Source: Myxococcales bacterium
GTDB lineage: Bacteria > Myxococcota_A > Polyangia > Fen-1088
DNA length: 64,000 nucleotides
Assembly (NCBI GenBank): GCA_022184915.1
Contig: JAGTJU010000001.1
Coordinates: 868,057-932,056, forward strand
Reading direction: 5' to 3'
Position numbers and translations under genes: made by a program. Within the stretch, counting starts at the first letter, position 1; every line of letters begins with the position of its first letter. The notes beneath the pieces are model-generated. The model had not been told where the DNA came from. It did not search any database and worked only from the letters and a program-made list of their open reading frames with translations. Shown one piece after another: positions 44,717-58,033 of this stretch.

Positions 44717-45634
44717 ATGACCAGCTTACACGGTGGCTTGACCGTGAGTCCATCGGGATTGGCACGTGTGCACGCCTCGTCACGCGTAATGCTCGACGTC
44801 GTCGAGCAGGTGAGGCGTCTCGCTCGTAGCCAGGTCAACGTACTGTTCCTGGGTGAGACCGGCACGGGCAAAGCCCTCTTGGCGCGCGCGCTGCATGAGG
44901 AAAGTCACCGCGCCCACGCGCCTTTCGTGCGCGTCGACTGTCGAGACGTGCACGCCGACGCGCGGGACCTCTTCGACGACGACGCACCGGGCGCCCCGGC
45001 GCGCGCGGGGGGCGGAACGCTCTTTTTGGACGAGGTCGCTGAGCTTCCGGGCCCGCTTCAACAGAGCCTCTTGCGCTGGCTGGACGGGCGAAGCTCGTTC
45101 GGCGACATGCCTGTAGGGGCGGGGGAGGTCCGCGTCGTTTCCGCGAGCTGCCGCGCGATCGAAGCGGTCGCTTCGTCTGCCGCCTTTCGGCAGGATCTCT
45201 ATTTTCGTCTCGCCGTGGCCCTGGTTCACGTGCCTCCCCTGCGCGATCGCGTGGAAGATCTGCCGCGGCTCGCGAATGATCTGCTCGCCGAGTTGGGGCG
45301 CCCCGAGCTCTTGCTGAGCCCGGAGACTCTCGTGTTGCTGAGTGCGCACCTTTGGCCTGGGAACGTCAGGGAACTGAAGAACGCCTTGGCAGCGGCCCTC
45401 GCCTTGGCGGACGGGGGCACCCTCGAGCCCAGGCACTTCAGATCGCTTGGCCACGAAGGCGCGCCCTCGGTGCTCGAGCGCCTCCCGCTGGGAGGCCAGA
45501 GATTGGAACATCTCGAACGCGCGGCCATCAAGCAAACGCTCACGCAGACCCGGGGGAACAAAGTGCAGGCAGCGCGTACGCTGGGGATCGCGCCCTCGAC
45601 GCTCTACGAGAAGCTCAAGCGCTACGGCCTCTGA
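44717..45634 (+). CDS. Sigma-54-dependent transcriptional activator (bacterial enhancer-binding protein), AAA+ plus Fis-type HTH, no N-terminal sensor domain
   Basis: Walker A GETGTGK. GAFTGA-region equivalent. ESELFGH-like, arginine finger. C-terminal HTH (RGNKVQAARTLGIAPSTLYEKLKRYGL). Confidence 0.75.
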   Translation: MTSLHGGLTVSPSGLARVHASSRVMLDVVEQVRRLARSQVNVLFLGETGTGKALLARALHEESHRAHAPFVRVDCRDVHADARDLFDDDAPGAPARAGGGTLFLDEVAELPGPLQQSLLRWLDGRSSFGDMPVGAGEVRVVSASCRAIEAVASSAAFRQDLYFRLAVALVHVPPLRDRVEDLPRLANDLLAELGRPELLLSPETLVLLSAHLWPGNVRELKNALAAALALADGGTLEPRHFRSLGHEGAPSVLERLPLGGQRLEHLERAAIKQTLTQTRGNKVQAARTLGIAPSTLYEKLKRYGL

Positions 45635-45640
45635 GCTCCG

Positions 45641-46960
45641 TCACGCAAAGCCCCCTCGTCCCTGAAACGAAAACGCCCCCGGCACAGGCTTCGTGGCCAT
45701 CTGCGGAAGAAAGCCCTCGAGCTTCTCGAGCACGCGCAGCTGGCGTCCCGCGTGCTGATCGGCCCTCAGGTGTACGCCAAGACCGTAGCGTACGAAGAGC
45801 TCATCGATGAGCAGCGCACGCATCTGCCCGCGCAGGTGTTGCGAGTAAAGGGCCGACAAACTCTCCTCGGGGCTTGCGATCTTACCCATGCGGTAGCGCG
45901 TGGCGGGGGCAAGCACCAAGCGGGCGCGCGCGAGCGCTTCGGTCCAGGGGGCCTCGTCCTGAGACAGCCGCCACAGCGGGTCGGCGTCGCTCGGCGCGCG
46001 CTCTCGTGACGCTTCGTCTGCGTTCGGGGGCTCAATCACGTGCTCGACCGGACCAATGCCACTCATGAGGTGCAGCGCCTGTGCGGCAGCGGGCGCGAGG
46101 CCCTCGATGGTCAAGGCCCGCAGCAACGTGGGCACGAGGGCGCCATCTCCCAGCAGGCCCGCCGCGAAGGTGGCGAAGGCGTCGCCGGTCTCGATGTGTT
46201 TGGCGAGGAGGGATGCGGCGCGGGGACCTCCGAGGAACGCCAACACCACGGGCGCCCATGCTTGGTTCAGCGCTTGCGCCAGCAGCCAGTGCGCCAGCTG
46301 CGGGTCTTCTGTCCGGCACAAGGCCAGTGCCGCGGCGCGGGCCACCGGGGCTTCGCTTGCCCCCAGCGCTTCGATGAGGGCATCGCGCGCGGGCGCCTCA
46401 CCGATTTGCCCCAAAGCCCAGAGCCACGTGGCAGGGGTCGGCACGCCCTGGCGAAGGCCCGCCAACAAGGCCGGCCCCACGTCCCAGCGTTGGTAACCGG
46501 CGGCATAGGCCAACGCCTCGGCCTCCGGCGCCGCGCCTCCGGCAACGAGCGTCGCCTGCACGTCGCCGAGGTCACCTCCCCAGGGCTCGTGGGCCAGGGC
46601 CGTTCTCAGCGCTTCGGCAGGGGAGGGCTCCCGCGCCGCCAGGCGGTTGGGATCCACGTTCAGCGCCAGCGCCTCGTTCGCCGTGACCCTCAAGGCCGCC
46701 ATGTTCCCCGCATGCGCGAGCGTTCGCGTGGCCGCGTACACGGCTCCTCCGCCGTCGAGCGGGACCGCACGACAGAAGTCTGCTGCGTCTTTGCCGCCGA
46801 AAAACAGCAGATCCAGATGGGCGTCGAGACGGTCATCGAGGGATCGCACCTGAGACAGGCCGAGCTCGGGAGGATCCAGGTCCTGGCAGCGCCGCACGAA
46901 GAGCGTGCCCGCCTCCTCTAGGCTCTCCTCGAACAGCTCTTGGTTGAAGCGAATGGCCAT
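45641..46960 (-). CDS. TIGR02270-like hypothetical protein (paralog of 47531..48847)
   Basis: Its N-terminal E-E-S-x-x-E-A-x-x-L pattern and helical-repeat composition resemble the downstream TIGR02270-like protein. The family is described as being of unknown function and T6SS/VgrG-associated in Proteobacteria. Confidence 0.4.
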   Translation of the reverse strand: MAIRFNQELFEESLEEAGTLFVRRCQDLDPPELGLSQVRSLDDRLDAHLDLLFFGGKDAADFCRAVPLDGGGAVYAATRTLAHAGNMAALRVTANEALALNVDPNRLAAREPSPAEALRTALAHEPWGGDLGDVQATLVAGGAAPEAEALAYAAGYQRWDVGPALLAGLRQGVPTPATWLWALGQIGEAPARDALIEALGASEAPVARAAALALCRTEDPQLAHWLLAQALNQAWAPVVLAFLGGPRAASLLAKHIETGDAFATFAAGLLGDGALVPTLLRALTIEGLAPAAAQALHLMSGIGPVEHVIEPPNADEASRERAPSDADPLWRLSQDEAPWTEALARARLVLAPATRYRMGKIASPEESLSALYSQHLRGQMRALLIDELFVRYGLGVHLRADQHAGRQLRVLEKLEGFLPQMATKPVPGAFSFQGRGGFA

Positions 46961-47073
46961 GCTGCCAGCGCCAGCCTATCGCAGTCCCGTCGCTTTTGGG
47001 CAGGCGGCCTATGGACTTGGCGCCCGCACCCGGCGAAACTCGCGGGATGGAGAGCCCGAGGTCTAAGGAGCGT

Positions 47074-47529
47074 ATGTCACCGCTGGCCCTGGGGCAGGCG
47101 CGGACGGCGGCGCTGGTGGCGGCGAACGAGGACGAGGCGGGGCGGGTCTGGGCCTGGGTGGATGTGGGGCAGGGCCCCGAGCGGGCCGCGCTGCAGGTGC
47201 CGCTGTCGGCCGCGCGCCTCGAGCGCATCGCCGCCGAGCAACGCCCCGTCATCGTGTTCAGGGCCCCGGGAGGTCTCGAGGTGGTGGCCGTGGTGGGCCT
47301 GGCGTTGGCGCCGCCGCTGGCGCCGCTGGCGCCCGCGGGTGCGCCCATCGAGGCCGACGTCGACGGACAGCGACTGCGTCTTCATGCCGAGCGCGAGATC
47401 GTGCTTTCTTGCGGCAAAGCCTCGATCACCTTGCGCGCCAATGGCCGTGTGATCATTCAAGGCACGCAGATCGAGTCCTACGCCGAAGGCACGAACCGGA
47501 TCAAGGGTGGGCAAGTTCGCATCAACTGA
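47074..47529 (+). CDS. Small hypothetical protein with VgrG/gp5 C-terminal-like beta-helix repeats
   Basis: AGGAG RBS. The C-terminus (GKASITLRANGRVIIQGTQIESYAEGTNRIKGGQVRIN) resembles VgrG tail repeats. The ORF track extends it to a TTG at 46996. Confidence 0.4.
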   Translation: MSPLALGQARTAALVAANEDEAGRVWAWVDVGQGPERAALQVPLSAARLERIAAEQRPVIVFRAPGGLEVVAVVGLALAPPLAPLAPAGAPIEADVDGQRLRLHAEREIVLSCGKASITLRANGRVIIQGTQIESYAEGTNRIKGGQVRIN

Positions 47530-47530
47530 C

Positions 47531-48847
47531 ATGCCCATGCGCTCACGGCTCCCTGTTTTGTGGCCCCTCGTCGAAGAGAGCTTCGACGAGGCCGAGTTTT
47601 TGTGGCGTTCCTGGGAGGAGAGCCTCGACACCCACGCGCGCCACCTCGGCCAGGTCTGGTTTTGGACCGACGACCGCCTGCAGGGGGCCCTCGAAGGTGT
47701 GCGGCTCGGCGGGCGCCGGGCGCTCGACGAACTCTTGTTGCCCGCGCTGGCACGCCCCGAATCCCCTTTTCGGGTGCGGGCCACGGTGCACGTGCTGGCT
47801 TCCCACGCGACACCGGCGTGGGGCGCCCTGGGGGAAAGTCTGCGGGGGACAGCGTCCCTCGGCTTCGACATCGAGCGCGGCCTGCAAACGCTCACCGAGC
47901 CGCGCCAGGTGAGCGCGCTCGAAGCGTGGCTCGCGCATCAGGGTGAGGCCTCGCGGGCTCTCCGGGTGTCCTTGCGTGTGTTTCGCAAGCAAGCTTCACC
48001 GCCCGACGAGGTGAGCGCGCTTGCCGTGTCCCACGTGCCGGCGCACCGGCGGGTGGCCATGGCGGCAGCCCAGCACCTTCCGCCGGGGCTGGCCAAGCCG
48101 CTCCTGGTTCGCGGCCTCGACGACATCGAGGGCGAGGTGGCCAACGCCGCGGTCGGCGCGGGGCTCGTGCACGGCTTGCCTGCGGCGTGGGCACGCTGCT
48201 GCGAACGGGCCGCGGCACAATCATCGGCGCTCTTCGTGTTCCTGGCGGCCTGCCTCGGGGGGCCCCGCGAACGGCGTCTCGTCGAAGCCTCGCTGGGGCT
48301 TGCGCGCACACGGCCCTTTGCCCTTTCGGCCCTGGGGTTTTTGGGCACACGCAGGGCGGCCGATCTGGCCCTCGAGCTGATGAACGAAGACGCGCAGGCG
48401 CGCCTGGCGGCCGAGGCCTTTTGTGCCATCACGGGGCTCGACCTGGCCGCAGAAAACGCCGCCTTGCCGGAGCCTTTGCCGCCCGCGGGGCCCGTGCCTT
48501 TCGAGCTCGACGATCTGGATGCAGACCTCGTGCCCAAACCGGATGACCTGCTTCCCGCCCCCGACGTGGCGCGGGTTTCTGCGTGGTGGGCGGCCCACCG
48601 CAACCGCTTCGATGAGCACACCCGCTACATCGGAGGGCGGCCCCTGTCGCCCACCGCCTTGTGGGACGCGCTCGCGCGGGGGCCCATGCGTCGCCGGCAC
48701 GTGCTGGCCTTCGAGCTGGCCGTCCGCACCGCAGGGGCTTGTGACCTTCAGACCCGCGCCTTCACTTCGTTCCAGCGCCAGCAGCTCCGGCAGTTCACCG
48801 CAGAGCTCGCTGACATACCCTTTGCGATGAACGCCTTCGCCTCCTGA
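47531..48847 (+). CDS. TIGR02270-like hypothetical protein
   Basis: ATG 2 nt after the upstream TGA. N-terminal LVEESFDEAEFLWRSWEESL. HEAT-like repeats. Confidence 0.45.
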   Translation: MPMRSRLPVLWPLVEESFDEAEFLWRSWEESLDTHARHLGQVWFWTDDRLQGALEGVRLGGRRALDELLLPALARPESPFRVRATVHVLASHATPAWGALGESLRGTASLGFDIERGLQTLTEPRQVSALEAWLAHQGEASRALRVSLRVFRKQASPPDEVSALAVSHVPAHRRVAMAAAQHLPPGLAKPLLVRGLDDIEGEVANAAVGAGLVHGLPAAWARCCERAAAQSSALFVFLAACLGGPRERRLVEASLGLARTRPFALSALGFLGTRRAADLALELMNEDAQARLAAEAFCAITGLDLAAENAALPEPLPPAGPVPFELDDLDADLVPKPDDLLPAPDVARVSAWWAAHRNRFDEHTRYIGGRPLSPTALWDALARGPMRRRHVLAFELAVRTAGACDLQTRAFTSFQRQQLRQFTAELADIPFAMNAFAS

Positions 48848-48857
48848 GCCTGGCCCC

Positions 48858-49880
48858 ATGTTGCAGCTCGAAAACGCGTCCGGCCTGCCGGCTTCCCTGG
48901 CCGTGTTTCCCGATCCCCACGGCATCGATACTCTCTACACCGTCGTCAAAGCTACGTTCGCCTTGCGACCGCGGCTGGCCTTGGCCGATGAGCAGCTGCC
49001 CGTGTCGGCGGTCGACGCGTGGCGGGGCGAGCCCGGCAAGAGCAGCCTCACCGAGGTCAGCGAATTTCACCTCGGCAAACCGGGCACCGACGTGCTCCTC
49101 ACCGGGCACGCCGTGGCCCCGCAGGGCCGGCCCGCCCCGCAGAGCGCCGTGCGCCTGGTGGTTGCCAATCGGCAGAAAACGGCGGCCATTTTTGGCAAGC
49201 GCGTGTGGCGGCGCGGGGGCACGCTCTGCCCGCCCGAGCCCTTCGAGAAGGTCCCGCTCGTGTGGGAACACGCTTACGGTGGTTGCCACGAGGTGACGCC
49301 CGGTGGGGCCCTGCTGGGCGAAGACGCCAATCCCCTGGGGGTGGGCTTCGTGGGCCGCCGCTCCGCCGAGAGCTTCATCAGCACACCGGCCCCGCAGATC
49401 GAAGATCCTGCGGCCCTCATGCAAACACTCGGGGACAGGCCCCCCCCTGTGGGCTTTGGGCCGATGCCCGCCGCCTGGGCCGCGCGTCGGCGCTTTGCTG
49501 GCACCTACGATGCGGCCTGGCAGCGCACGCGGGCGCCCTACCTGCCCGCCGATTTCGATCCTCGCTTTTTTCACGTGGCCCCCGCGCCCTTCGCCTTCGC
49601 GCACCCGCTGCAAGGCGGTGAACCGGTCTCTGTCATTGGCGTGTCTTACGACGGACCCTATGCCTTTGCGGTGCCACGTCTCGTGGTGGGGGTCCACGTC
49701 GTGCTGGCGCGCCGGCAGCAGATCGTGCAAGCGATGCTCGAGACCCTGTGGATCCACGCCGACACGGCCCGCGTGAGCTTGTCCTACCGGGCCGCGCTCG
49801 CGTGCGACAAAGAGGTCCTCGCGGTGAAGAAGGTGCGAATCGAGGTGGCTGGCCTCGAGGAAGTAGGGCTGGCCGCGTGA
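48858..49880 (+). CDS. DUF2169-family protein (T6SS effector adaptor/chaperone family)
   Basis: N-terminal MLQLENASGLPASLAVFPDPHGIDTLYTVVKATFAL matches the DUF2169 N-terminal signature. 340 aa is typical. Confidence 0.65.
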   Translation: MLQLENASGLPASLAVFPDPHGIDTLYTVVKATFALRPRLALADEQLPVSAVDAWRGEPGKSSLTEVSEFHLGKPGTDVLLTGHAVAPQGRPAPQSAVRLVVANRQKTAAIFGKRVWRRGGTLCPPEPFEKVPLVWEHAYGGCHEVTPGGALLGEDANPLGVGFVGRRSAESFISTPAPQIEDPAALMQTLGDRPPPVGFGPMPAAWAARRRFAGTYDAAWQRTRAPYLPADFDPRFFHVAPAPFAFAHPLQGGEPVSVIGVSYDGPYAFAVPRLVVGVHVVLARRQQIVQAMLETLWIHADTARVSLSYRAALACDKEVLAVKKVRIEVAGLEEVGLAA

Positions 49881-50938
49881 ATCAACCCGTGTACCTCTTG
49901 GCAAGCGGAGCTCTTTGCGCCCTCGGCATCGGCGTGGCGCAGATTTGGGCGGCGGCGCGTGCGGGGCTCTCGCGCACCGCCGCGTCGCCCCTACGAGGCG
50001 GCTCCGGTGAGCCCCTCACTCTGGCGCTGGTGCCCGAAGACGCGCTGGCACCGCTTGACCCCGCGCTCGAAGCACAGCATCCCGCGCAGGTCGAAGGTCG
50101 GCTGCTGCGCTTGATGGCGTCGCCTTTGGCCGAAATCGCGAGCGGGCCGCTCGCTTCCGCACCCCTGCCTCTTTATCTCGGCATGCCCGAGCCCGAGCCG
50201 GGGTTCGGTCGAGCCTTCGATGACAGGCGGTTTTTGTCGCAGGTGGCGCAGCTTGCCGCCGTGCCGATCGACCCCGCGCGCAGCCGTGTGTTTCGGCAGG
50301 GACGGGCGGCGGGCTTCTTTGCGTTGGCTGCGGCTGAGGAGGCGCTCGCGCGCGGAGACTTTACGCACGTTCTCGTGGGCGGGGTGGATAGCTACCTCGA
50401 TCCCGTTCGCCTCGCGCGTCTGGACGCCGAAGGGCGGCTCTTGGGTCCCCACACGATGGACGGCTTCATCCCCGGTGAAGGGGCGGCCGTGCTGCTTCTC
50501 GCGAAGGTGCCCCCTGCTGCGGGGGTGGCGGCGTGTAGGCTCTCCGGTGTGGCCACGGCGTTTGATGCCGGGCATCGCTACGCCGAAGCGCCTGCCCTGG
50601 GTGAAGGCCTTGCGGCCGCCCTTGAGAGCCTGCGCGCGGCGGGGCGTGGCCCCCAAGGTCCCGCAGAGGTCGTCTTCGCCGGGCTCACCGGCGAGAGCTT
50701 CGGCGCGAAGACCTGGGGCGTGGCGCAGCTACGCCACCGCGACCTCATCTCACCCGAAGCCCTGCTCGAGCACCCCGCGGAGGGGTTCGGCGACGTGGGA
50801 GCGGCGATGGGCCCGCTTTTGCTAGCGCTCGCCGATGCGTCCCTGGTGCTCGGGCACCGGGACGGCCCCGCGCTCGTATGGGCCAATGCGGATCGGGGTC
50901 CCTGCGGCTGTGCGTTCATCGAAACCGCTACACCCTGA
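49877..50938 (+). CDS. Beta-ketoacyl-synthase-like (thiolase-fold) protein lacking the canonical catalytic Cys
   Basis: GTG start overlapping the DUF2169 stop (GTGA). KAS-like N-terminus (VYLLASGALCALGIG..IWAAARAG) and FIPGEGAAVLLL. No TACSS-type Cys motif at the expected position. Confidence 0.55.
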   Translation: MNQPVYLLASGALCALGIGVAQIWAAARAGLSRTAASPLRGGSGEPLTLALVPEDALAPLDPALEAQHPAQVEGRLLRLMASPLAEIASGPLASAPLPLYLGMPEPEPGFGRAFDDRRFLSQVAQLAAVPIDPARSRVFRQGRAAGFFALAAAEEALARGDFTHVLVGGVDSYLDPVRLARLDAEGRLLGPHTMDGFIPGEGAAVLLLAKVPPAAGVAACRLSGVATAFDAGHRYAEAPALGEGLAAALESLRAAGRGPQGPAEVVFAGLTGESFGAKTWGVAQLRHRDLISPEALLEHPAEGFGDVGAAMGPLLLALADASLVLGHRDGPALVWANADRGPCGCAFIETATP

Positions 50939-50956
50939 GCTAACGAGGAGACCGCC

Positions 50957-51341
50957 ATGGCACAGACCACCTTCGCGAACATGCGTGGCATCGTCCACAA
51001 GGGCTCGGGGGGCACGAGCCCCGTGTTTCCTGACGTCTGCAAAACGCCTGCCCCTCCGGCCGGGCCCCTGCCCATTCCTTACCCCAACATGGGGCAAGCC
51101 AGTCACACGAGCGGGGGGCCCACGAAGGTGAAGGTCGACGGGCAGATGCCCATGACCAAGGGTGCAAAGTACCAGATGAGCGCGGGGGGACGAGGCCGGC
51201 GCGGTGGGGGGCGTGATGAGCGGAAAGATCAAGGGCGCGTGTGAGTTCATGATGTACTCCTTCGACGTGAAGTTCGAAGGCAAAAACGTGTGCCGCATGG
51301 GCGATCCGCTCTTCCACAACGAAAAGAATGCGATGGGTTGA
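50957..51341 (+). pseudogene. PAAR-like DUF4150 (Tox-PAAR-like) gene disrupted by a frameshift in a G6 homopolymer (51184-51189)
   Basis: GAGGAG RBS. The N-terminal part (VHKGSGGTSPVFPDVCKTPAPPAGPLPIPYPN...) is in the ORF-track frame to 51244. The C-terminal part (GVMSGKIKGACEFMMYSFDVKFEGKNVCRMGDPLFHNEKNAMG*) is in the -1 frame, ending at the TGA at 51339-51341. Confidence 0.6.
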
Positions 51342-51346
51342 CTGAC

Positions 51347-52123
51347 ATGCAGCTCGGAGAAGCCATAGCCGTCATGGTGGCCGCGCCCGACGAGGGCGCG
51401 TGCTGGGCCTGCGAAGCGCCCCCACCCGAAGATCCCAAACCCAACGATCTCGCCGAAGATCCCGATTCGGCAAGCGCCGCCGAGAACAATCTGCACAACG
51501 ACTCGAGCAAGCTCGGCCGCAACCTTGGCCGTAGGCCTTCGTGGAACATCACGGTGCCAGACCGAGACGCGAGCGGTGGCACCATGACCCGCTCGGTGAC
51601 CGTGGTTCCGGGCGCCCATCACTTGATTCCGGGGAACGCCTCGCTCAAAAAAACGCCCTCGCTGCTCGCGCTCATGGAGAAACAAAAGGGCAAGGTGCGC
51701 GAGGACATCGGGTACGACGTCAACGGCGCCAAAAACGGCATTTGGCTACCAGCGAACTATGGGGTGAGGTCCGATTCGGAGTTCGGCAAGGCCTGGAGCG
51801 CTTACGGCTTTCAGAACGACTACGCCCTGGCGGCCATGAAGCGCGCCGGCGCGCAGTTTCACGACGCACACCCGGACTATAGCCGCAACGTGCAGCGCAC
51901 CCTCCGGGCCCTCGCTGACAAGATCAAGCTGCACGCCCCCGAAAAGTGTGGCATCTGCGAAAAAGAGATCTCCGACAAGGCGCGCCCTCCCTACGGCCTC
52001 GTGGGGCGCCTCGATGGGGTGTCACGCCAACACCGGGCCTTCTTGGCCGGTCCCGTGCGCAAGTGGCCCATCGCCAGTGGGTACTACACGTCCGCGCGTT
52101 CGGCGCTCATGAAGGGGAGTTAA
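51347..52123 (+). CDS. AHH-family nuclease toxin (HNH/EndoVII superfamily)
   Basis: GAHHLIP ... NGIWLP ... H motif arrangement characteristic of Tox-AHH. ATG is 5 nt after the PAAR-like stop. Confidence 0.65.
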   Translation: MQLGEAIAVMVAAPDEGACWACEAPPPEDPKPNDLAEDPDSASAAENNLHNDSSKLGRNLGRRPSWNITVPDRDASGGTMTRSVTVVPGAHHLIPGNASLKKTPSLLALMEKQKGKVREDIGYDVNGAKNGIWLPANYGVRSDSEFGKAWSAYGFQNDYALAAMKRAGAQFHDAHPDYSRNVQRTLRALADKIKLHAPEKCGICEKEISDKARPPYGLVGRLDGVSRQHRAFLAGPVRKWPIASGYYTSARSALMKGS

Positions 52124-52683
52124 TGAGTTACTTCGTTCTGCAAGCGCGCACCCCCGTGGACGACGAGGGCGGCTACTACGACATCGGCGACGGCATCGAG
52201 CTCGACGGCGTGCGCAGCTGGGCCCTGGGGGTGCCGATCACCGCTTCTCTCGCCACGCCCCTCGTGGTTCCGCTCACCCCCATCGAGGGCTTCACGGGTG
52301 ATGTGCCCGCGTTGGCCGATGGGTATCTGTGTCTCATGAGCCATCCCCTCGTCGAGGCGCTGCGTGCAGCCGGTGTGGATAACCTTCAGACCTTCGATGC
52401 GGTCTTGGTCGACGAGACCCACGGGCGCACGTTTGCCTATCAGGCCGTCAACATCATCGGCATGGTCGCCGCGGCCGATCTGCAAGCGTCCCAGTGGGAG
52501 AACCTGGATGGCCCCGCGAAGATGGACACTCACTTCGACGAGCTGAAGATCGACCCCGATCGCGCGCTGGGCTTGCTTCTCTTTCGCCTGGCGGAGAACA
52601 CCGGGATCATCGTCGTTCACGAGCGCATCAAAAAGGCGCTCGAGGCGGCCGGGATCCCCACGTTGGTGTTTTTGCCGGCCTGA
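52123..52683 (+). CDS. Putative cognate immunity protein (possibly Imm11/DUF1629-like)
   Basis: TAATG overlap with the toxin gene. GGGGAG RBS. 186-aa acidic protein starting MSYFVLQ. The position is typical for immunity genes. Confidence 0.5.
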   Translation: MSYFVLQARTPVDDEGGYYDIGDGIELDGVRSWALGVPITASLATPLVVPLTPIEGFTGDVPALADGYLCLMSHPLVEALRAAGVDNLQTFDAVLVDETHGRTFAYQAVNIIGMVAAADLQASQWENLDGPAKMDTHFDELKIDPDRALGLLLFRLAENTGIIVVHERIKKALEAAGIPTLVFLPA

Positions 52684-52690
52684 GCTGCCG

Positions 52691-53698
52691 TCAGCGCATG
52701 AGGTCGATCACCCGTGTGGTGAAGGCCTCGGTCGTGCTCGTTCCGCCAATGTCCACCGTGGTGTACTTGCCCTCGGCGATGGCCGCTCTGACCGCGTTTT
52801 CCAGGCGCTGCGCGCGCTCTCGTTGCCCCAGACGATCCAGCATCATGGCCCCGGCCAGCATCACCGCCGTGGGGTTCGCCTTGCCTTGCCCGGCGATGTC
52901 GGGGGCCGTGCCGTGAACGGCTTCGAAAATGGCGGCGCTTTCGCCGATGTTGGCACCCGCCGTGAGCCCCAGGCCCCCCACCAGGCCCGCCGTCAGGTCC
53001 GACAGAATGTCTCCGAACAGGTTCGTGGTGACGATGATGTCGAAGCGTGAGGGATCGCGCACCAGCTGCATCGCGCAGTTGTCGACGATGAGGTCCTCGA
53101 ACACGATGTCGGGGTAGCTGCGCGCGATGTCGCGGCCCGTGTCCAGGAACAGGCCCGACGTCATCTTCAAGATGTTCGCTTTGTGGACCAGGGTCACCTT
53201 CTTGCGCCCGGCAGCCCGCGCGAACTCGAAGGCGAAGCGAATGATCCTATCGCAGCCGTGCCGCGTGATGATGCTGATCGCCTCGGCCGCGCTGCGCGTG
53301 GGGTCGATGTAATGTTCGATGCCCACGTACTCCCCTTGCGTGTTTTCCCGCACAACGAAAAGGTCCACCGTGTCGTAGCGCCCCTTGATGCCCTCGAACT
53401 TCCGCGCGGGCCGCAAGTTGGCGTAAAGATCGAACTCGAGCCGCAAGGAGACGTTCACGCTCTTGTAGCCGCCCCCCACGGGTGTGGCCAAGGGCCCCTT
53501 GAGGCAGACCTGGTTGGCACGGATCGATGCCAACGTGGCCTCAGGCAGCGGGGCGCCATGTTTCGGCACCGCGCTCGCCCCCGCGTCCTGCGGGTCCCAG
53601 GTGAGCGCTGCGCCCGTGGCCTCGATCGCGCGCACGGCGGCGTCCACGACCTCCGGCCCAATTCCATCCCCCCGAATCAACGTGACCTTGGTTGACAT
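52691..53698 (-). CDS. Isocitrate/isopropylmalate dehydrogenase family protein (likely NAD-dependent isocitrate or homoisocitrate dehydrogenase)
   Basis: [12 protein letters not shown]-terminus, NLFGDILSD motif, 335 aa. Confidence 0.8.
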
Positions 53699-53737
53699 CT
53701 CGATTTCGGAGTATAGGGGAACTCCCCAGCAAACATC

Positions 53738-56080
53738 GTGTTAGTCCCCCCGTCACACCTCGAATTTCTCGATTGGCCCGCCGTGGTCGACCGTCTGGCC
53801 GCGGGAGCCCAGTCCGACCGCGGCAGGGAATTTTGCCGCGCGCTGCTGCCCCTGGAAAACATGGAGGAAGCCCGCGCGCGGGGGCAGTGGGCCCGCGAGC
53901 TCATGGACATCTTGGTCCGCGAGGGCCGCATGCCGTCGCTGGCCTTCCCGGAGATCGAGCCTCACCTGCAACTCGCGCAGCAGGGGGGCGTGCTGGGGGC
54001 GGACGAGATGAGCCGGATCGGGGCATTTTGCGAGATCGGGGCCACCTGTCGGCGCTTCTTCGCGCGCTTTGCGCCGGGCGCAGGCGTGCACGAGGCCGCT
54101 GGCGTGTGGGGCCTGGTGGCGCCGCTCGGCGAGTGGGGCGAGCTGGCGCGGCTTGCGCGCGAGACCTTCGACGCCTCGGGGGAGATCCGTGACAGCGCCT
54201 CCCCGGTGCTGGCCCGGCTGCGCCGCGAGCGCGATCTGCTCGCCGCCCGCATCCGCGAGCAGGCCGAGGCGCTGCTCCTGTCGGAGGCGTACGAGCCCCT
54301 GCTGCAAGATCGCTTCGTCACCCAGCGCGGGGATCGCTTCGTGTTGCCGGTGCGCGCGTCGTTCAAGTCGATGGGCATGGGCATCGTGCACGATACGTCG
54401 CGCACCGGAGAGACCGTGTTCATCGAGCCCACGGCCCTCGTCGAGCTGAACAACAGGCTCAAGGTGCTCGAGCTCGAGATCCGCCACGAATGCCGCCGCA
54501 TCCTGGAGGAGCTCGCCGCCCTGGTGGCCGAAGCGGCTCCCGCCCTTCGCACCGATCTCGCGCGGCTCGGCCAGCTCGATTTTCTCGTGGCGCTGGCCCG
54601 TTACGGCGTGGCGTGTGACGGCACCCTGCTGACGCTCGTCGATGGCCCCGAACTCGATCTGTGCGATCTGCGCCACCCGCTGCTCGTGCTCCGCGCGCGG
54701 AGTGAAGGCTTTGCCGTGGTCGCGAACGAGGTGCACCTCGGGGGCTCTCTGGGCGCGCAGCTGCTGGTGGTGAGTGGACCCAACGCGGGCGGCAAAACGG
54801 TGTTCCTGAAGGCCGTGGGGCTGGCCGTGCTCTCGGCCCATGCGGGTTTGCCCGTGCCGGCCAGCGCACGTTGCCGCGTGGGGCGCTTTTCGGCGGTGCT
54901 GGCCGATATCGGCGACCAGCAAAGCGTGCTCGGCGATCTGTCCACGTTCTCGGCGCACCTGGCGAACATGGCAGGCATCCTCGAGACCGTGGCCGCCACG
55001 GGGGGGCAGCCGGCGCTCGTGCTCTGCGACGAGCTCATGGCGGGCACCAACCCGGACCAAGGGGCTGCGCTCGCACGGGCTTGCCTGGAAGCGATGGCAG
55101 AGGGCCGGGCCTTGGGCGTCTGCACCACCCACTACGACGCGCTCAAGGCTTTGGCCGACGGCGATGCGCGCTTTCGCAACGCGGGCATGGAATACGATCC
55201 CGAGAACCTGCGCCCCACCTTTCGGATGCGGGAAGGCTTGCCGGGGCGTAGCTACGCGCTCGACATCGCGGGGCGCATGGGCCTGCCCGTGACGGTGTTG
55301 GCCCGCGCGCAGGAGCTCGTGGGGGCGCCGTCGGTGGGGCTCGAGACGGTGTTGCGCGATCTCGAGCTGCGGGAGGCCTCGCTTGCCGCACAGGAGGCCG
55401 CCCTCGCGGAGGCCCGGGCGGAGTTCGAGCACCAAGCCGAGCGAGAAAAGTCCGCGACCGAGGCCCTCGTCAAGCGCGAACGTGAGCTGGCGGTGAAGAT
55501 CCGGGAAACGATCGAGACTTCCGTCAAACAAGCGCGCGAGCAGCTTCGGGAGATCGTGCAGACCGCACGCAACGAAGCGGCAAACAAGGGCGTCGATCGC
55601 GCGGTCGCAGCGGCGCGGGAGGCGCTGGCGCGCACGGCGGAGGCGGCCCGCGAGGGCTTGCCCGAGGCGGACCCCAAGCTGGATCTCGAGCGGCTCAAGA
55701 AGGCCTGGGCCCGCCGGGGCTTTCGCGGCCTCAAGGGCGAGGGGGTGGTGGCGGCGGGGCCTGTGAAGCCCCCACCCGGCAAGCCGATGGCCGCCCCGGC
55801 CCCCGAGGACGAGTTCGCAGGGGTCCTCAAATCTCGGCGCAACAGCATCGATGTGCGCGGCCTGCGGGTCGATGACGCCTTGGCCACGGTCGAGTCGCGG
55901 CTCGACGAAGCCCTGCGCGAGGGCGCCGATGCCGTGTTCGTGATTCACGGTTACGGCTCGGGCGCGCTCCGTAAAGCCGTGCGGGAGTTCCTGTCGCTCT
56001 CTCCCGCGGTTGCACGGCAGCGTCCTGGTCAGCGCGAAGAGGGTGGTGATGGCGTCACCGTGGCAATCGTGAGGGGCTAG
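53738..56080 (+). CDS. mutS2: Endonuclease MutS2 (MutS domain plus C-terminal Smr domain)
   Basis: Walker A (SGPNAGGKTVFLKAVG). MutS signature (LCDELMAGTNPDQGAALA). C-terminal Smr (IDVRGLRVDDALATVESRLDEA...VIHGYGSGALRKAV). Confidence 0.85.
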   Translation: MLVPPSHLEFLDWPAVVDRLAAGAQSDRGREFCRALLPLENMEEARARGQWARELMDILVREGRMPSLAFPEIEPHLQLAQQGGVLGADEMSRIGAFCEIGATCRRFFARFAPGAGVHEAAGVWGLVAPLGEWGELARLARETFDASGEIRDSASPVLARLRRERDLLAARIREQAEALLLSEAYEPLLQDRFVTQRGDRFVLPVRASFKSMGMGIVHDTSRTGETVFIEPTALVELNNRLKVLELEIRHECRRILEELAALVAEAAPALRTDLARLGQLDFLVALARYGVACDGTLLTLVDGPELDLCDLRHPLLVLRARSEGFAVVANEVHLGGSLGAQLLVVSGPNAGGKTVFLKAVGLAVLSAHAGLPVPASARCRVGRFSAVLADIGDQQSVLGDLSTFSAHLANMAGILETVAATGGQPALVLCDELMAGTNPDQGAALARACLEAMAEGRALGVCTTHYDALKALADGDARFRNAGMEYDPENLRPTFRMREGLPGRSYALDIAGRMGLPVTVLARAQELVGAPSVGLETVLRDLELREASLAAQEAALAEARAEFEHQAEREKSATEALVKRERELAVKIRETIETSVKQAREQLREIVQTARNEAANKGVDRAVAAAREALARTAEAAREGLPEADPKLDLERLKKAWARRGFRGLKGEGVVAAGPVKPPPGKPMAAPAPEDEFAGVLKSRRNSIDVRGLRVDDALATVESRLDEALREGADAVFVIHGYGSGALRKAVREFLSLSPAVARQRPGQREEGGDGVTVAIVRG

Positions 56081-56083
56081 GCC

Positions 56084-58033
56084 GTGCTGCCTCTTCGGCT
56101 CCACCGCGCTCTGGCTGCCCTGGCCGCTGCCCTGGCCGCAGGTCCCGCCGGGGTGGCCCTGGCGTGGCTCTTTCAGCTTTTCGCGGCCCGCCTCACGTTC
56201 GCCCTTGACCTCGAGTGGATGGAGGGAGGCCTGCTGCTTCACGCGCAGCGCCTGCAGCAGGGCCTCGAAATTTACGTTCCGCCCTCGCTCGACTTCATTC
56301 CTTATCTCTACACGCCCTTTTATCCGCAGCTTCTCGCGTGGCTCGGGCATGTGTTTCCCCTGGGCTACGGGCTTGGCCGTTCGGTGTCCGTGCTGGCGTT
56401 CGCAGGGGTGTGCCTGCTTGCACCCGTTTTGGCGGTGGTTCCCGCATGGCGCTTGGACGCGGGGGCGCGGCGGTGGGGGGCGTTGCTGGCGGGGGCGCTG
56501 GGGCTGGGGGCCGCAGGGCCCATCGCAGCCAGCTACGTGTTCACGGGCACCTTTTACGATCTCGTCCGCGCCGATTCTTTGGCCATGTTGCTCATCGGCT
56601 TGTCCGCGACGTGCGGCTTTCTCGGGCGGCGTACGCTGTCCGCGGTGGCCGCGGGGCTCTTGATCGCGCTTGCCTTCTTCACGAAACAAACGGCGTCCTT
56701 GCCGGGCATCGCCGTGGGACTCGGGCTGCTCGTGGCAAACTTGCGACGCGGATTCATCTACGGCGTCACCGCCGCTTTGGCGCTGGGAGCCGGTGTGCTC
56801 TACTGGCAGGCCCGCAGCGGCGGTTGGTTTTGGACGTACGTCTTCGAGCTCCACCAAAGCCACGGATTCAACCGCGCTCTGGCCTATCGTGAAACGCCGC
56901 TGCGGCTCCTGCGTCAGGCCTGGCCGCTTTACAGTGCGCTTGCGCTTGCCACCGTGGGCCTGGCACTCGGGCGGCGGTTGCGAAGGATCGACGCGCTGCC
57001 CTTGTTGCTTGCCGTTTCGGGGTTCGTGGTCGCATGCGTCGGCTTTGGCACCCAGTGGGCCTTCGATAACGCCTTCATACCCGCCATCGTCTTTCCGGCT
57101 TGGGCCGTGGCGGCCCTTGGCGGGCGGCTCGTGGCCGTGGCGCCCGTGCGCCTGGGTGCGGTGGCGCTCGCGGTGCTGGTGGCTTCGGGCCTCGGCTTCG
57201 CGAGCGTGAGGGACGGCGCCCCTGACAAAAGCGCGCTTGCGCCCTCGCGCACCGATCGGCGCGCGGCCGTCCGTCTGCTCGAGATCTTGCGCGGCCTGCC
57301 GGGCGAGGGGTTCATTCCCTTTCACCCCTTTTACGCCGTGCTTTCGGGGCACAAGCCCTTCGTGCACCGCATGGGGGTGATGGACGTGGGCGCCCAGCTC
57401 GGCCGCCCCGCGGGGCTCGACCAAGCCATCGCCGAACAGCGTTTCGACTTCATCGTGCTCGACTGGAAGTCTCGCCCCTACGAATGGCCGGGGCTCGACA
57501 ACCGCTATCACGTGGTCAAGACGCTCACCGAAGGCCTCGACTCCGTACGAATGTTTTCAGGGGCACAAACCTCGCCTCGCCAGATCCTGCTGCCGATTCG
57601 ATCGCCTCCCGCCTTGCCCCCCGGCGCCACCGTGCTCTTCGACTTCGAGCAGGGCATCTGGGCGGGCTTTCAGCCCGAGGGCAACGCCTGGGACCCGACA
57701 CCGTCCCCTGCGCCCCCGGGCGCGTTTGGGCGCTTTGCCGCCGATTCGCGGGTGCTGGGCCGCCACACCAAAGGTGTGCTGCGCTCTTCTCCCTTCGTGC
57801 TCTCGGGCGGAGCCCTCCGGTTGTGGCTCGACGGAGATCGCCATCCCGGTCTGCGCGTGGCCCTGCTCGTGGGCCCCGAGGTGGTGCACGAAGCGGCCCC
57901 CAAGGGCGAACCCGCCACCCTCACCTGGCCGGTCGAGGCGTACAAAGGCCAGACCGCCACACTCATGATCGAAGACAACTCCGATGTGGGGGGCCTGGCG
58001 GTGGATCAGGTGATCGACCTCGGCACGCCCTAG
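56084..58033 (+). CDS. GT-C-type membrane glycosyltransferase-like protein (ArnT/PMT, GT39/GT83-like) with C-terminal soluble domain
   Basis: GTG start 4 nt after the mutS2 stop. 10 or more TM helices with conserved loop features of GT-C enzymes. Assignment tentative. Confidence 0.45.
   Translation: MLPLRLHRALAALAAALAAGPAGVALAWLFQLFAARLTFALDLEWMEGGLLLHAQRLQQGLEIYVPPSLDFIPYLYTPFYPQLLAWLGHVFPLGYGLGRSVSVLAFAGVCLLAPVLAVVPAWRLDAGARRWGALLAGALGLGAAGPIAASYVFTGTFYDLVRADSLAMLLIGLSATCGFLGRRTLSAVAAGLLIALAFFTKQTASLPGIAVGLGLLVANLRRGFIYGVTAALALGAGVLYWQARSGGWFWTYVFELHQSHGFNRALAYRETPLRLLRQAWPLYSALALATVGLALGRRLRRIDALPLLLAVSGFVVACVGFGTQWAFDNAFIPAIVFPAWAVAALGGRLVAVAPVRLGAVALAVLVASGLGFASVRDGAPDKSALAPSRTDRRAAVRLLEILRGLPGEGFIPFHPFYAVLSGHKPFVHRMGVMDVGAQLGRPAGLDQAIAEQRFDFIVLDWKSRPYEWPGLDNRYHVVKTLTEGLDSVRMFSGAQTSPRQILLPIRSPPALPPGATVLFDFEQGIWAGFQPEGNAWDPTPSPAPPGAFGRFAADSRVLGRHTKGVLRSSPFVLSGGALRLWLDGDRHPGLRVALLVGPEVVHEAAPKGEPATLTWPVEAYKGQTATLMIEDNSDVGGLAVDQVIDLGTP

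What the first reader, a model, noticed from the sequence alone, without database searches (positions are those of the whole stretch)
45641..52683. Orphan T6SS-type effector cassette: TIGR02270-like / VgrG-tail-like / TIGR02270-like / DUF2169 / KAS-like / PAAR-like(DUF4150) / AHH nuclease / immunity
Seven co-directional genes with start-stop overlaps (TGAcATG, GTGA, TAATG) form a single operon, plus a divergent TIGR02270-like paralog. The content follows polymorphic-toxin logic: a DUF2169 adaptor, a PAAR-like spike-cap domain, a C-terminal nuclease toxin (AHH motif GAHHLIP...NGIWLP) and an immediately overlapping small acidic immunity gene. The order TIGR02270-like, DUF2169, KAS-like, PAAR-toxin, immunity is how I recall the P. 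aeruginosa vgrG1b-PA0096-PA0097-PA0098-tse7-tsi7 island. Here, however, the PAAR is of the DUF4150 type and the nuclease is AHH, encoded as a separate gene. No VgrG, Hcp or T6SS core genes are present in the window, so it looks like an orphan effector island. Coding GC appears slightly lower than the surroundings by eye.
Basis: partly seen in the sequence, partly recalled or inferred. Interest (0 to 1): 0.75.

Follow-up and report, generated by a model that had tools for sequence, protein, structure and literature searches.

The report
Orphan type VI toxin-loading cassette
This is an ordinary but complete bacterial "poison-dart loading kit": helper proteins that mount a cap and a DNA-cutting toxin (with its antidote) on a type VI secretion spike. 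It sits far from any spike gene, and its cap gene is broken by one extra G in this assembly.

Summary
45641-52683 holds a divergent HEAT-repeat gene plus seven tightly packed co-directional genes.

This matches the published DUF2169 "synteny type A" / "class II Tvp" accessory set, which loads a PAAR-like cap and its effector onto a VgrG spike. No VgrG or other T6SS core gene was found in the 64 kb window, so "orphan" holds for the window. The rest of the genome could not be checked.

- The cap gene is split by a +1 frameshift (G6 at 51184-51189). Two 97%-identical metagenome contigs have G5 and an intact 127-aa protein.
- In Pseudomonas, DUF6484 follows vgrG and TIGR02270 comes last.
- Only the cap, toxin and immunity genes have lower GC.
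- The KAS-like protein lacks the catalytic triad.

The window's gene order recurs in 35 of 80 related loci from three phyla, so this is a new member of a known kind. One extra lead: unrelated toxins next to standalone caps share an N-terminal M-x-[IL]-G-E leader.

The parts
45641..46960 (-). Divergently transcribed HEAT-repeat protein (439 aa), a distant TIGR02270 paralog
   Evidence: TIGR02270 59.6 bits over the full length, far below the 206.8 cutoff; HEAT_2 19.3 bits. 26% identical to the in-operon TIGR02270 protein. Small family: 12 hits at 56-60% identity. Found in the same divergent position in L001, L002 and L091, but standing alone in L092, and in L090 with only 961 bp of contig upstream. 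dN/dS 0.22 against L001.
47011..47529 (+). DUF6484 / TvpC-like protein (172 aa; alternative starts TTG 46996 or ATG 47047): OB-fold plus a short beta-prism that mimics a VgrG tip
47531..48847 (+). TIGR02270-type HEAT/armadillo-like accessory protein (438 aa)
   Evidence: TIGR02270 205.6 bits over profile positions 2-410 of 410 (cutoff 206.8). The L012 ortholog scores 245 bits. Start confirmed by the TGAcATG junction and by the L001 gene call.
48858..49880 (+). DUF2169 adaptor (TvpA-like, 340 aa)
   Evidence: PF09937 291.5 bits, E 9e-87, full length.
49877..50938 (+). PRK06147 / thiolase-fold 'KAS-like' protein (TvpD-like, 353 aa) without the condensing-enzyme catalytic triad
   Evidence: NF004798 160.5 bits, E 6e-47. 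In an alignment with E. coli FabF, C163, H303 and H340 correspond to A, G and D here, and neither His is retained in any of 13 family members (H340 is D or E in all).
50957..51341 (+). DUF4150 / PIPY PAAR-like cap gene, interrupted by a +1 frameshift
   Evidence: First half 50957-51188, second half 51189-51338, in different frames. The repaired protein (127 aa) matches PF13665 at 134.4 bits and is 100% identical to L001's. It contains the PIPY motif. There are 4 synonymous and 0 non-synonymous differences against L001.
51184..51189 (+). G6 homopolymer that causes the frameshift (G5 in L001 and L002)
   Evidence: Direct comparison. It is the only indel in 10.8 kb of 97.2%-identical alignment.
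51347..52123 (+). AHH-family (HNH/EndoVII) nuclease effector (258 aa) with the conserved N-terminal leader MQLGEAIAV...CWAC
   Evidence: PF14412 31.5 bits, above the 22.3 cutoff. 403 homologs; the 120 best listed are mostly ~250-300 aa and near full-length. Invariant in 40 homologs: C19, C22, H91, H92, N126, N130, G131, W133, H172, D173, H175, Y178 and C201. AF2 pLDDT 90. dN/dS 0.19.
52123..52683 (+). Imm11-like acidic immunity protein (186 aa); its start overlaps the toxin stop (TAATG)
   Evidence: PF07791 21.3 bits (cutoff 22.1). The 57%-identical L017 homolog scores 41.5 bits. pI 4.35. dN/dS 0.17.

Best explanation
The locus encodes a type VI secretion spike-tip loading module of the DUF2169 'synteny type A' / 'class II Tvp' kind, together with a cargo effector-immunity pair.

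Proposed mechanism (the steps are inferred from the cited literature and from synteny unless marked as shown):
1. The seven co-directional genes are co-transcribed and translationally coupled. The gaps and overlaps of -4 to +18 nt are shown; co-transcription is inferred.
2. The DUF6484 protein trimerises into an OB-fold plus short beta-prism that stands in for the tip of a VgrG spike.
3. The standalone PIPY/DUF4150 cap sits on that surrogate tip. DUF2169 and the catalytically dead thiolase-fold protein shield the cap's hydrophobic surfaces.
4. The TIGR02270 HEAT protein acts as a further scaffold.
5. The pre-complex is handed to a real VgrG encoded elsewhere in the genome.
6. The 258-aa AHH nuclease rides along as non-covalent cargo and degrades DNA in the target cell. 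The Imm11-like protein protects the producer and its kin.

As sequenced, the cap gene carries a one-base insertion. This copy therefore either cannot deliver toxin while still conferring immunity, or the extra G is an assembly error.
For: - Family assignments.
- Operon junctions.
- The same seven-gene order occurs in 35 of 80 GTDB loci, from Myxococcota, Acidobacteriota and Gammaproteobacteria. In the window-like loci a VgrG lies immediately upstream in 10 and convergent downstream in 7. One VgrG was verified by TIGR03361 at 653 bits.
- VgrGs in these loci end in ...ASITLKKDG..IKG...KGSK[IV]..N. This resembles the DUF6484 tail ...ASITLRANGRVIIQG...IKGGQVRIN.
- The KAS triad is absent.
- Purifying selection acts on every gene: dN/dS 0.04-0.37 against a 97%-identical strain.
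- The toxin and immunity proteins are 68% and 57% identical to those of a Pseudomonadota MAG whose accessory proteins are only 35-48% identical. This is the module swapping expected of polymorphic toxins.
- Literature: TvpC/TvpA/TvpD pre-complex model and the statement that PA0096 is DUF6484 (10.64898/2026.02.23.707444). DUF2169 is required for delivery of PIPY effectors, and synteny type A comprises DUF6484, a thiolase-like gene and an armadillo-like gene (PMC11883445). The pef operon genes are required for killing (PMC5714391). PRK06147 neighbours are enriched in AHH toxins (PMC7714669).
Against: - No VgrG, Hcp or sheath gene in 64 kb. The source genome is not among the GTDB species representatives that the DUF6484-based scan returned (best locus 51% identity), so whether it has a T6SS is unknown.
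- The cap gene is frameshifted in this sequence.
- No protein-protein contact was tested here; the assembly order comes from work on other species.
- Three scores fall below curated cutoffs: Imm11 and TIGR02270 by about 1 bit each, and PRK06147 by a wide margin (160.5 against 342).
Confidence: 0.8

Rival explanations
1. This is a decaying or immunity-only locus. The cassette lost its linked vgrG and then its cap gene through the frameshift. It now serves at most to keep the immunity protein, which protects against toxin fired by kin.
For: +1 frameshift in the cap gene. No VgrG in the window. A relative (L091) has the accessory genes and cap but no recognisable toxin downstream.
Against: The frameshift is the only indel in 10.8 kb. 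Both halves of the gene carry only synonymous differences against the intact L001 and L002 copies, and the repaired protein is 100% identical to theirs, so the lesion is very recent or an error. All other genes are under purifying selection. VgrG-less cassettes make up 16 of 42 fully flanked loci, so absence of a linked vgrG is a normal state.
Confidence: 0.15
2. The cassette feeds a contractile or other injection system that is not a T6SS, such as an extracellular contractile injection system. Alternatively, the DUF6484 trimer itself serves as a minimal spike.
Against: The window has no tail, sheath or baseplate genes. DUF6484 lacks the gp27/Phage_GPD hub that couples a spike to a tube. Every large spike protein found next to these cassettes is a T6SS-type VgrG.
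Confidence: 0.04
3. The KAS-like and TIGR02270 genes form a small lipid or polyketide biosynthetic unit unrelated to secretion, and their position next to a toxin pair is coincidental.
For: Hits to ketoacyl-synt (28.5 bits) and PRK06147 '3-oxoacyl-ACP synthase'.
Against: The Cys-His-His triad is replaced across the family. The gene lies between DUF2169 and the cap gene in most of the related loci that carry it, across several phyla. No ACP or other fatty-acid genes are adjacent.
Confidence: 0.01

Closest known systems
Pseudomonas aeruginosa vgrG1b cluster PA0095-PA0101 (Tse7/Tsi7; 'class II Tvp', DUF2169 'synteny type A')
   Same: It shares DUF6484, DUF2169, PRK06147/thiolase-like, DUF4150 cap, an HNH-superfamily nuclease, an immunity gene and a TIGR02270/armadillo-like protein. 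This was verified in the syntenic Pseudomonas locus L084.
   Different: In Pseudomonas vgrG is adjacent, the cap is fused to a Tox-GHH2 toxin, and TIGR02270 is the last gene. In the window there is no vgrG, TIGR02270 sits between DUF6484 and DUF2169, the cap is a standalone 127-aa protein, the toxin is a separate AHH protein, and there is an extra divergent HEAT paralog.
Proteus mirabilis hcp-vgrG-pefABCDEFG primary effector operon
   Same: It is a synteny type A cluster. Mutations in several operon genes, including those downstream of the toxin and immunity genes, abolish killing (PMC5714391; PMC11883445).
   Different: It is linked to hcp and vgrG. PefD is a fused PAAR-like/GHH2 toxin.
Serratia marcescens TvpAB/TvpB/TvpC/Paar1 ('class III Tvp')
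   Same: It has a standalone DUF4150 cap (Paar1) with a separately encoded effector. A surrogate-spike TvpC pre-complex is later replaced by VgrG1.
   Different: TvpC there is the longer DUF3540 type, and pentapeptide-repeat TvpB proteins are present. PRK06147 and DUF6484 are not listed among its components.
Agrobacterium tumefaciens Tap2(Atu3641)-Tde2 and Vibrio parahaemolyticus VP1398-VP1415
   Same: DUF2169 is needed to load a DUF4150-bearing nuclease effector onto VgrG.
   Different: The Agrobacterium system has no DUF6484, thiolase-like or TIGR02270 partners. Both effectors are fused to the cap.

Membership tests
T6SS DUF2169 synteny type A / class II Tvp cluster | DUF2169 (TvpA) gene | tested here: met
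   PF09937 291.5 bits, full length.
T6SS DUF2169 synteny type A / class II Tvp cluster | DUF6484 (short TvpC) gene | tested here: met
   Pfam alone missed it. hhalign of its subfamily against verified DUF6484 proteins gives 99.9%, E 1e-33 over 141 columns. Homologs carry PF20093.
T6SS DUF2169 synteny type A / class II Tvp cluster | PRK06147 / thiolase-like (TvpD) gene between DUF2169 and the cap gene | tested here: met
   NF004798 E 6e-47 across profile positions 6-343 of 349, although 160.5 bits is below the equivalog cutoff of 342. The position is as expected.
T6SS DUF2169 synteny type A / class II Tvp cluster | Armadillo/HEAT-like (TIGR02270) gene | tested here: met
   205.6 bits against a 206.8 cutoff, full length. 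The ortholog in L012 scores 245 bits. The position differs from Pseudomonas.
T6SS DUF2169 synteny type A / class II Tvp cluster | DUF4150 / PIPY cap-containing gene | tested here: inconclusive
   The gene is present but frameshifted as sequenced (profile positions 4-60 of 108 only). After removing one G it matches over the full length at 134.4 bits.
T6SS DUF2169 synteny type A / class II Tvp cluster | Adjacent vgrG | tested here: not met
   No VgrG in the 64 kb window. 16 of 42 fully flanked related loci also lack one.
T6SS DUF2169 synteny type A / class II Tvp cluster | A functional T6SS (tssA-M, hcp) in the same genome | not testable with these tools
   Only 64 kb is available. The exact-protein lookup found nothing, and the genome is not among the GTDB representatives returned by the scan.
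AHH nuclease (PF14412, HNH/EndoVII superfamily) | Profile match above the gathering score, and the AHH ... N ... H catalytic motif | tested here: met
   31.5 bits against 22.3. H91, H92, N126, N130, H172 and H175 are invariant in 40 homologs.
AHH nuclease (PF14412, HNH/EndoVII superfamily) | Beta-beta-alpha-metal fold resembling solved HNH nucleases | tested here: inconclusive
   [not shown]
AHH nuclease (PF14412, HNH/EndoVII superfamily) | DNase activity and toxicity | not testable with these tools
   This needs an experiment.
Imm11 immunity (PF07791) | Profile match above the gathering score | tested here: inconclusive
   21.3 bits against 22.1. The 57%-identical homolog in L017 scores 41.5 bits. 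In L089 the gene after the AHH homolog is annotated Imm11.
Beta-ketoacyl-ACP synthase | Cys-His-His catalytic triad (FabF C163, H303, H340) | tested here: not met
   The aligned residues are A, G and D in the window. Neither His is retained in any of 13 family members, and H340 is D or E in all of them.
VgrG spike | gp27-like hub (Phage_GPD) plus gp5 OB-fold plus beta-helix | tested here: not met
   The 172-aa protein has only a weak DUF2345-type tail match (18.9 bits) and an OB-fold. It has no Phage_GPD domain. True VgrGs in related loci have all the domains.

The most novel reading that the evidence does not exclude
The short N-terminal leader M-x-[EQD]-[ILV]-G-E-x-[IV]-x-V, usually followed by C-x-x-C, may be an undescribed recruitment tag. 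It would mark cargo effectors for loading onto standalone PIPY caps in DUF6484/DUF2169/PRK06147 clusters.

Evidence so far:
- The leader heads three unrelated toxin types encoded next to such caps: AHH nucleases, a 376-440 aa family with no Pfam hit, and an Rhs-Ntox37 protein.
- 16 of 29 regex matches in 1.9 million residues of ORF space lie 5-360 nt downstream of a cap gene.
- In fused cap-toxins a C-x-x-C motif sits in the linker after the cap domain. This suggests the split genes arose by fission.
Probability: 0.3. Interest if true: 0.55.

Novelty: new member of a known kind. Interest (0 to 1): 0.3.

Why it matters
This adds a Polyangia-like (Myxococcota) example to a T6SS accessory system whose assembly logic was worked out only in 2025-2026. 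It also shows that one sub-arrangement is widespread across three phyla: TIGR02270 inside the operon, a standalone cap and a separately encoded nuclease. That arrangement often lies away from any vgrG, which matters for effector-mining pipelines that anchor on vgrG or on PAAR fusions. The shared effector leader, if it is real, would give a simple marker for new T6SS cargo toxins and a testable handle on how cargo is attached to PIPY caps. The single-base break in the cap gene is a practical warning for annotation: the gene would be called as a 95-aa fragment.

Tried and rejected
- An exact-protein lookup of the DUF2169 protein found no record.
- A sigma-54 promoter consensus search gave 41 matches against 31 expected, none upstream of the operon. 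The sigma-70 scan found no promoter-like site. The adjacent sigma-54 activator therefore cannot be tied to the cassette.
- Terminator-like hits were at background level.
- I tested whether the VgrG tail is most similar to the DUF6484 tail of its own locus. It is not: the score for the cognate pair is about the same as the mean for non-cognate pairs.
- The ARAGORN tRNA-Arg at 54137-54226 lies inside the MutS2 coding sequence. I treated it as a false positive, so there is no tRNA-linked island boundary.
- A programmed frameshift or phase variation at the G6 run was considered but not pursued. The run is short, and the window contains 49 G or C runs of 6 or more bases.
- A database-wide search with the roughly 30-residue leader was judged statistically hopeless and was not run.


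Full report
**What is in the sequence.** The window is 66.7% GC. Its large ORFs include DUF4215 cysteine-rich proteins, which I associate with Myxococcota (own knowledge). Between 45641 and 52683 the ORF list and the junction sequences show one gene on the minus strand (45641-46960) and seven tightly packed genes on the plus strand:
- 47011-47529
- 47531-48847, whose start follows the previous stop as TGAcATG
- 48858-49880
- 49877-50938, with a GTGA overlap
- 50957-51341
- 51347-52123
- 52123-52683, with a TAATG overlap

**Family assignments.**
- Pfam and NCBIfam give DUF2169 (291.5 bits).
- The KAS-like protein matches PRK06147 (E 6e-47, full length, 160.5 bits, below the equivalog cutoff of 342) and has a weak ketoacyl-synt match.
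- The in-operon 438-aa protein matches TIGR02270 at 205.6 bits (cutoff 206.8).
- The divergent gene matches TIGR02270 at 59.6 bits and is 26% identical to the in-operon copy.
- The toxin matches AHH at 31.5 bits (cutoff 22.3).
- The last gene matches Imm11 at 21.3 bits (cutoff 22.1) and has pI 4.35. Its 57%-identical homolog in locus L017 scores 41.5 bits.
- The 172-aa 'VgrG-tail-like' protein was missed by Pfam. Its homologs carry PF20093, and a profile-profile comparison with verified DUF6484 proteins gives 99.9% probability and E 1e-33.
- Its last 44-54 residues match the C-termini of four of the eight VgrGs tested from related loci.
- The family is large: 4,664 cluster representatives, and the 150 best-scoring are 135-270 aa.

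**The cap gene is broken in this assembly.**
- ORF 50957-51244 matches only the first half of the Tox-PAAR-like profile. The second half is in another frame and ends at the TGA at 51339-51341.
- Two metagenome contigs (L001, L002) align to window 45633-56465 at 97.2% identity with a single gap. That gap is G5 in the contigs against G6 in the window at 51184-51189.
- Deleting one G yields a 127-aa protein that is 100% identical to L001's. It matches PF13665 over its full length at 134.4 bits and contains the PIPY motif.
- Both halves differ from L001 only synonymously (4 synonymous, 0 non-synonymous changes). The frameshift is therefore either an assembly error or a very recent mutation.
- All other cassette genes have dN/dS of 0.04-0.37.

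**Orphan status.**
- Pfam scans of 30 other large ORFs found no T6SS core family.
- tblastn with eight VgrGs found nothing except the DUF6484 tail.
- The source genome is not among the GTDB species representatives that the DUF6484-based scan returned. The best relatives are Polyangia and 'Deltaproteobacteria' MAGs at about 50% identity. Whether the genome has a T6SS could not be tested.

**Comparative context.** I scanned the GTDB genomes with the DUF6484 alignment, which gave 80 loci, and annotated them with profile searches. Two arrangements emerged.
- The window's order is DUF6484, TIGR02270, DUF2169, KAS-like, standalone cap, effector, immunity. It occurs in 35 loci from Polyangia and other Myxococcota, Steroidobacteraceae and Vicinamibacteria.
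- The Pseudomonas/Burkholderiales order is VgrG, DUF6484, DUF2169, PRK06147, cap::toxin, (immunity), TIGR02270. I verified this in L084.
- Of 42 loci with at least 9 kb on both sides, 26 have a VgrG and 16 do not.
- In the window-like loci the VgrG lies immediately upstream in 10 and convergent downstream in 7. One was verified as TssI/VgrG at 653 bits.
- The cap protein is strikingly conserved within the window-like group (mostly 66-87% identity, 58% in the most distant locus), while the accessory proteins are 34-60% identical.
- The window's toxin and immunity proteins are 68% and 57% identical to those of a Pseudomonadota MAG (L017) whose accessory proteins are only 35-48% identical. This points to exchange of the toxin module.

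**Comparison with the literature.**
- Sachar et al. (PMC11883445) define DUF2169 'synteny type A' as DUF6484, thiolase-like and armadillo-like genes plus a DUF4150 gene. They also show that DUF2169 is required for delivery of PIPY effectors.
- Monlezun et al. (10.64898/2026.02.23.707444) describe class II Tvp systems. A short DUF6484 TvpC trimer, a partial VgrG mimic, carries the PAAR domain. DUF2169 (TvpA) and PRK06147 (TvpD) chaperone it before hand-over to VgrG. The authors state that PA0096 is the DUF6484 protein.
- Liu et al. (PMC7714669) report that AHH is the second most common toxin family next to PRK06147 genes.
- In P. mirabilis, several pef operon genes, including those downstream of the toxin and immunity genes, are needed for killing (PMC5714391).
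By synteny with L084, TIGR02270 corresponds to the last gene of that island.

**Further tests.**
- I aligned the KAS-like family with E. coli FabF. The Cys163-His303-His340 triad is replaced by A, G and D here, and neither His is retained in any of 13 members (H340 is D or E in all). The protein has the thiolase fold but is not a condensing enzyme, which fits a chaperone role.
- The AHH effector belongs to a large family of standalone proteins of about 260 aa (403 hits). The AHH, NG[IV]WLP and FHDAHxxY residues are invariant, as are three cysteines: C19, C22 and C201.
- Its AF2 model is confident (pLDDT 90, pTM 0.88) but has no solved structural neighbour.

**Flanks.**
- Identity to L001 stops abruptly at 45633, just past the end of the divergent HEAT gene (45641). 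L001's left flank is not orthologous to the window's.
- In L091 the same divergent HEAT gene directly abuts YaeQ, a sulfatase, DUF3108 and a glycosyltransferase. These genes lie at 12.7-18.1 kb in the window. Window 18.1-45.6 kb is therefore a variable segment.
- The cassette with its divergent HEAT gene is the conserved unit. Its accessory genes have higher GC than average (0.69-0.71), and only the cap, toxin and immunity genes are lower (0.62-0.64).

**Extra observation.**
- Effectors encoded next to standalone caps begin with M-x-[EQD]-[ILV]-G-E-x-[IV]-x-V, usually followed by C-x-x-C. In the window this reads MQLGEAIAV...CWAC.
- A regex for the leader hits 29 times in 1.9 million residues of ORF space. 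Sixteen of those hits lie 5-360 nt after a cap gene.
- The leader heads AHH nucleases, an unannotated 376-440 aa family, and an Rhs-Ntox37 protein.
- Fused cap-toxins carry a C-x-x-C motif in the linker after the cap domain.
- AF2 places residues 3-12 as a helix packed in the toxin fold. Whether the leader is a recruitment tag or a structural element remains open.

**Verdict.** The finding is real and correctly interpreted in outline. It is a VgrG-unlinked class II Tvp / synteny type A T6SS loading cassette with an AHH-Imm11 effector-immunity pair. It is a new member of a known kind and of moderate to low interest. Two useful additions come out of this work: the frameshifted cap gene and the shared effector leader.

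Noticed in passing
window 51347-51420; loci L011-L057, L081 (5548-9060), L046, L052: A conserved N-terminal leader, M-x-[EQD]-[ILV]-G-E-x-[IV]-x-V followed by C-x-x-C, heads unrelated effectors next to standalone PIPY cap genes: AHH nucleases, an unannotated 376-440 aa family, and an Rhs-Ntox37 protein. 16 of 29 regex hits in 1.9 million residues of ORF space lie just after a cap gene.
   Followed up: partly
window 18096-45640: This ~27.5 kb segment has lower GC (0.61-0.67). It carries a TonB-dependent receptor, three DUF4215 cysteine-rich proteins, a 1322-aa cytochrome-c-like protein and a sigma-54 activator. It is absent in L091, where the divergent HEAT gene abuts YaeQ and the sulfatase, and it is replaced by non-orthologous genes in the 97%-identical L001.
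   Followed up: partly
window 49877-50938 and KAS-like ORFs of 12 loci: Neither catalytic His of condensing enzymes is retained in the PRK06147 / 'TvpD' proteins examined (13 members; H340 is D or E in all), and the nucleophile Cys position is not conserved. They look like thiolase-fold pseudo-enzymes.
   Followed up: yes
[not shown]
   Followed up: partly
L017 14296-15670 compared with window 51347-52683: The toxin and immunity proteins are 68% and 57% identical to those of a Pseudomonadota MAG whose accessory proteins are only 35-48% identical. This indicates exchange of the effector module between phyla.
   Followed up: partly
C-termini of VgrG ORFs in L010-L086; window 47368-47526: VgrGs next to DUF6484 clusters end in ...ASITLKKDG.I.IKG...KGSK[IV]..N. 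This parallels the DUF6484 tail ...ASITLRANGRVIIQG...IKGGQVRIN. There is no extra similarity between tails from the same locus.
   Followed up: yes
L089 (Hahella aquimaris CP132203.1, 491-21276): A VgrG-less cassette (DUF6484, DUF2169, KAS-like, AHH, Imm11, Imm11, cap) lies beside a serine recombinase, RadC and a transposase, which suggests it is carried on a mobile element.
   Followed up: no
window 54137-54226: ARAGORN calls a 90-nt tRNA-Arg(TCG) inside the MutS2 coding sequence. It is probably a false positive.
   Followed up: no
window 45641-46960; L090, L092: The divergent HEAT paralog belongs to a small family (12 hits, 56-60% identity). Its members are not always next to a T6SS cassette, so its link to the operon is uncertain.
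   Followed up: partly
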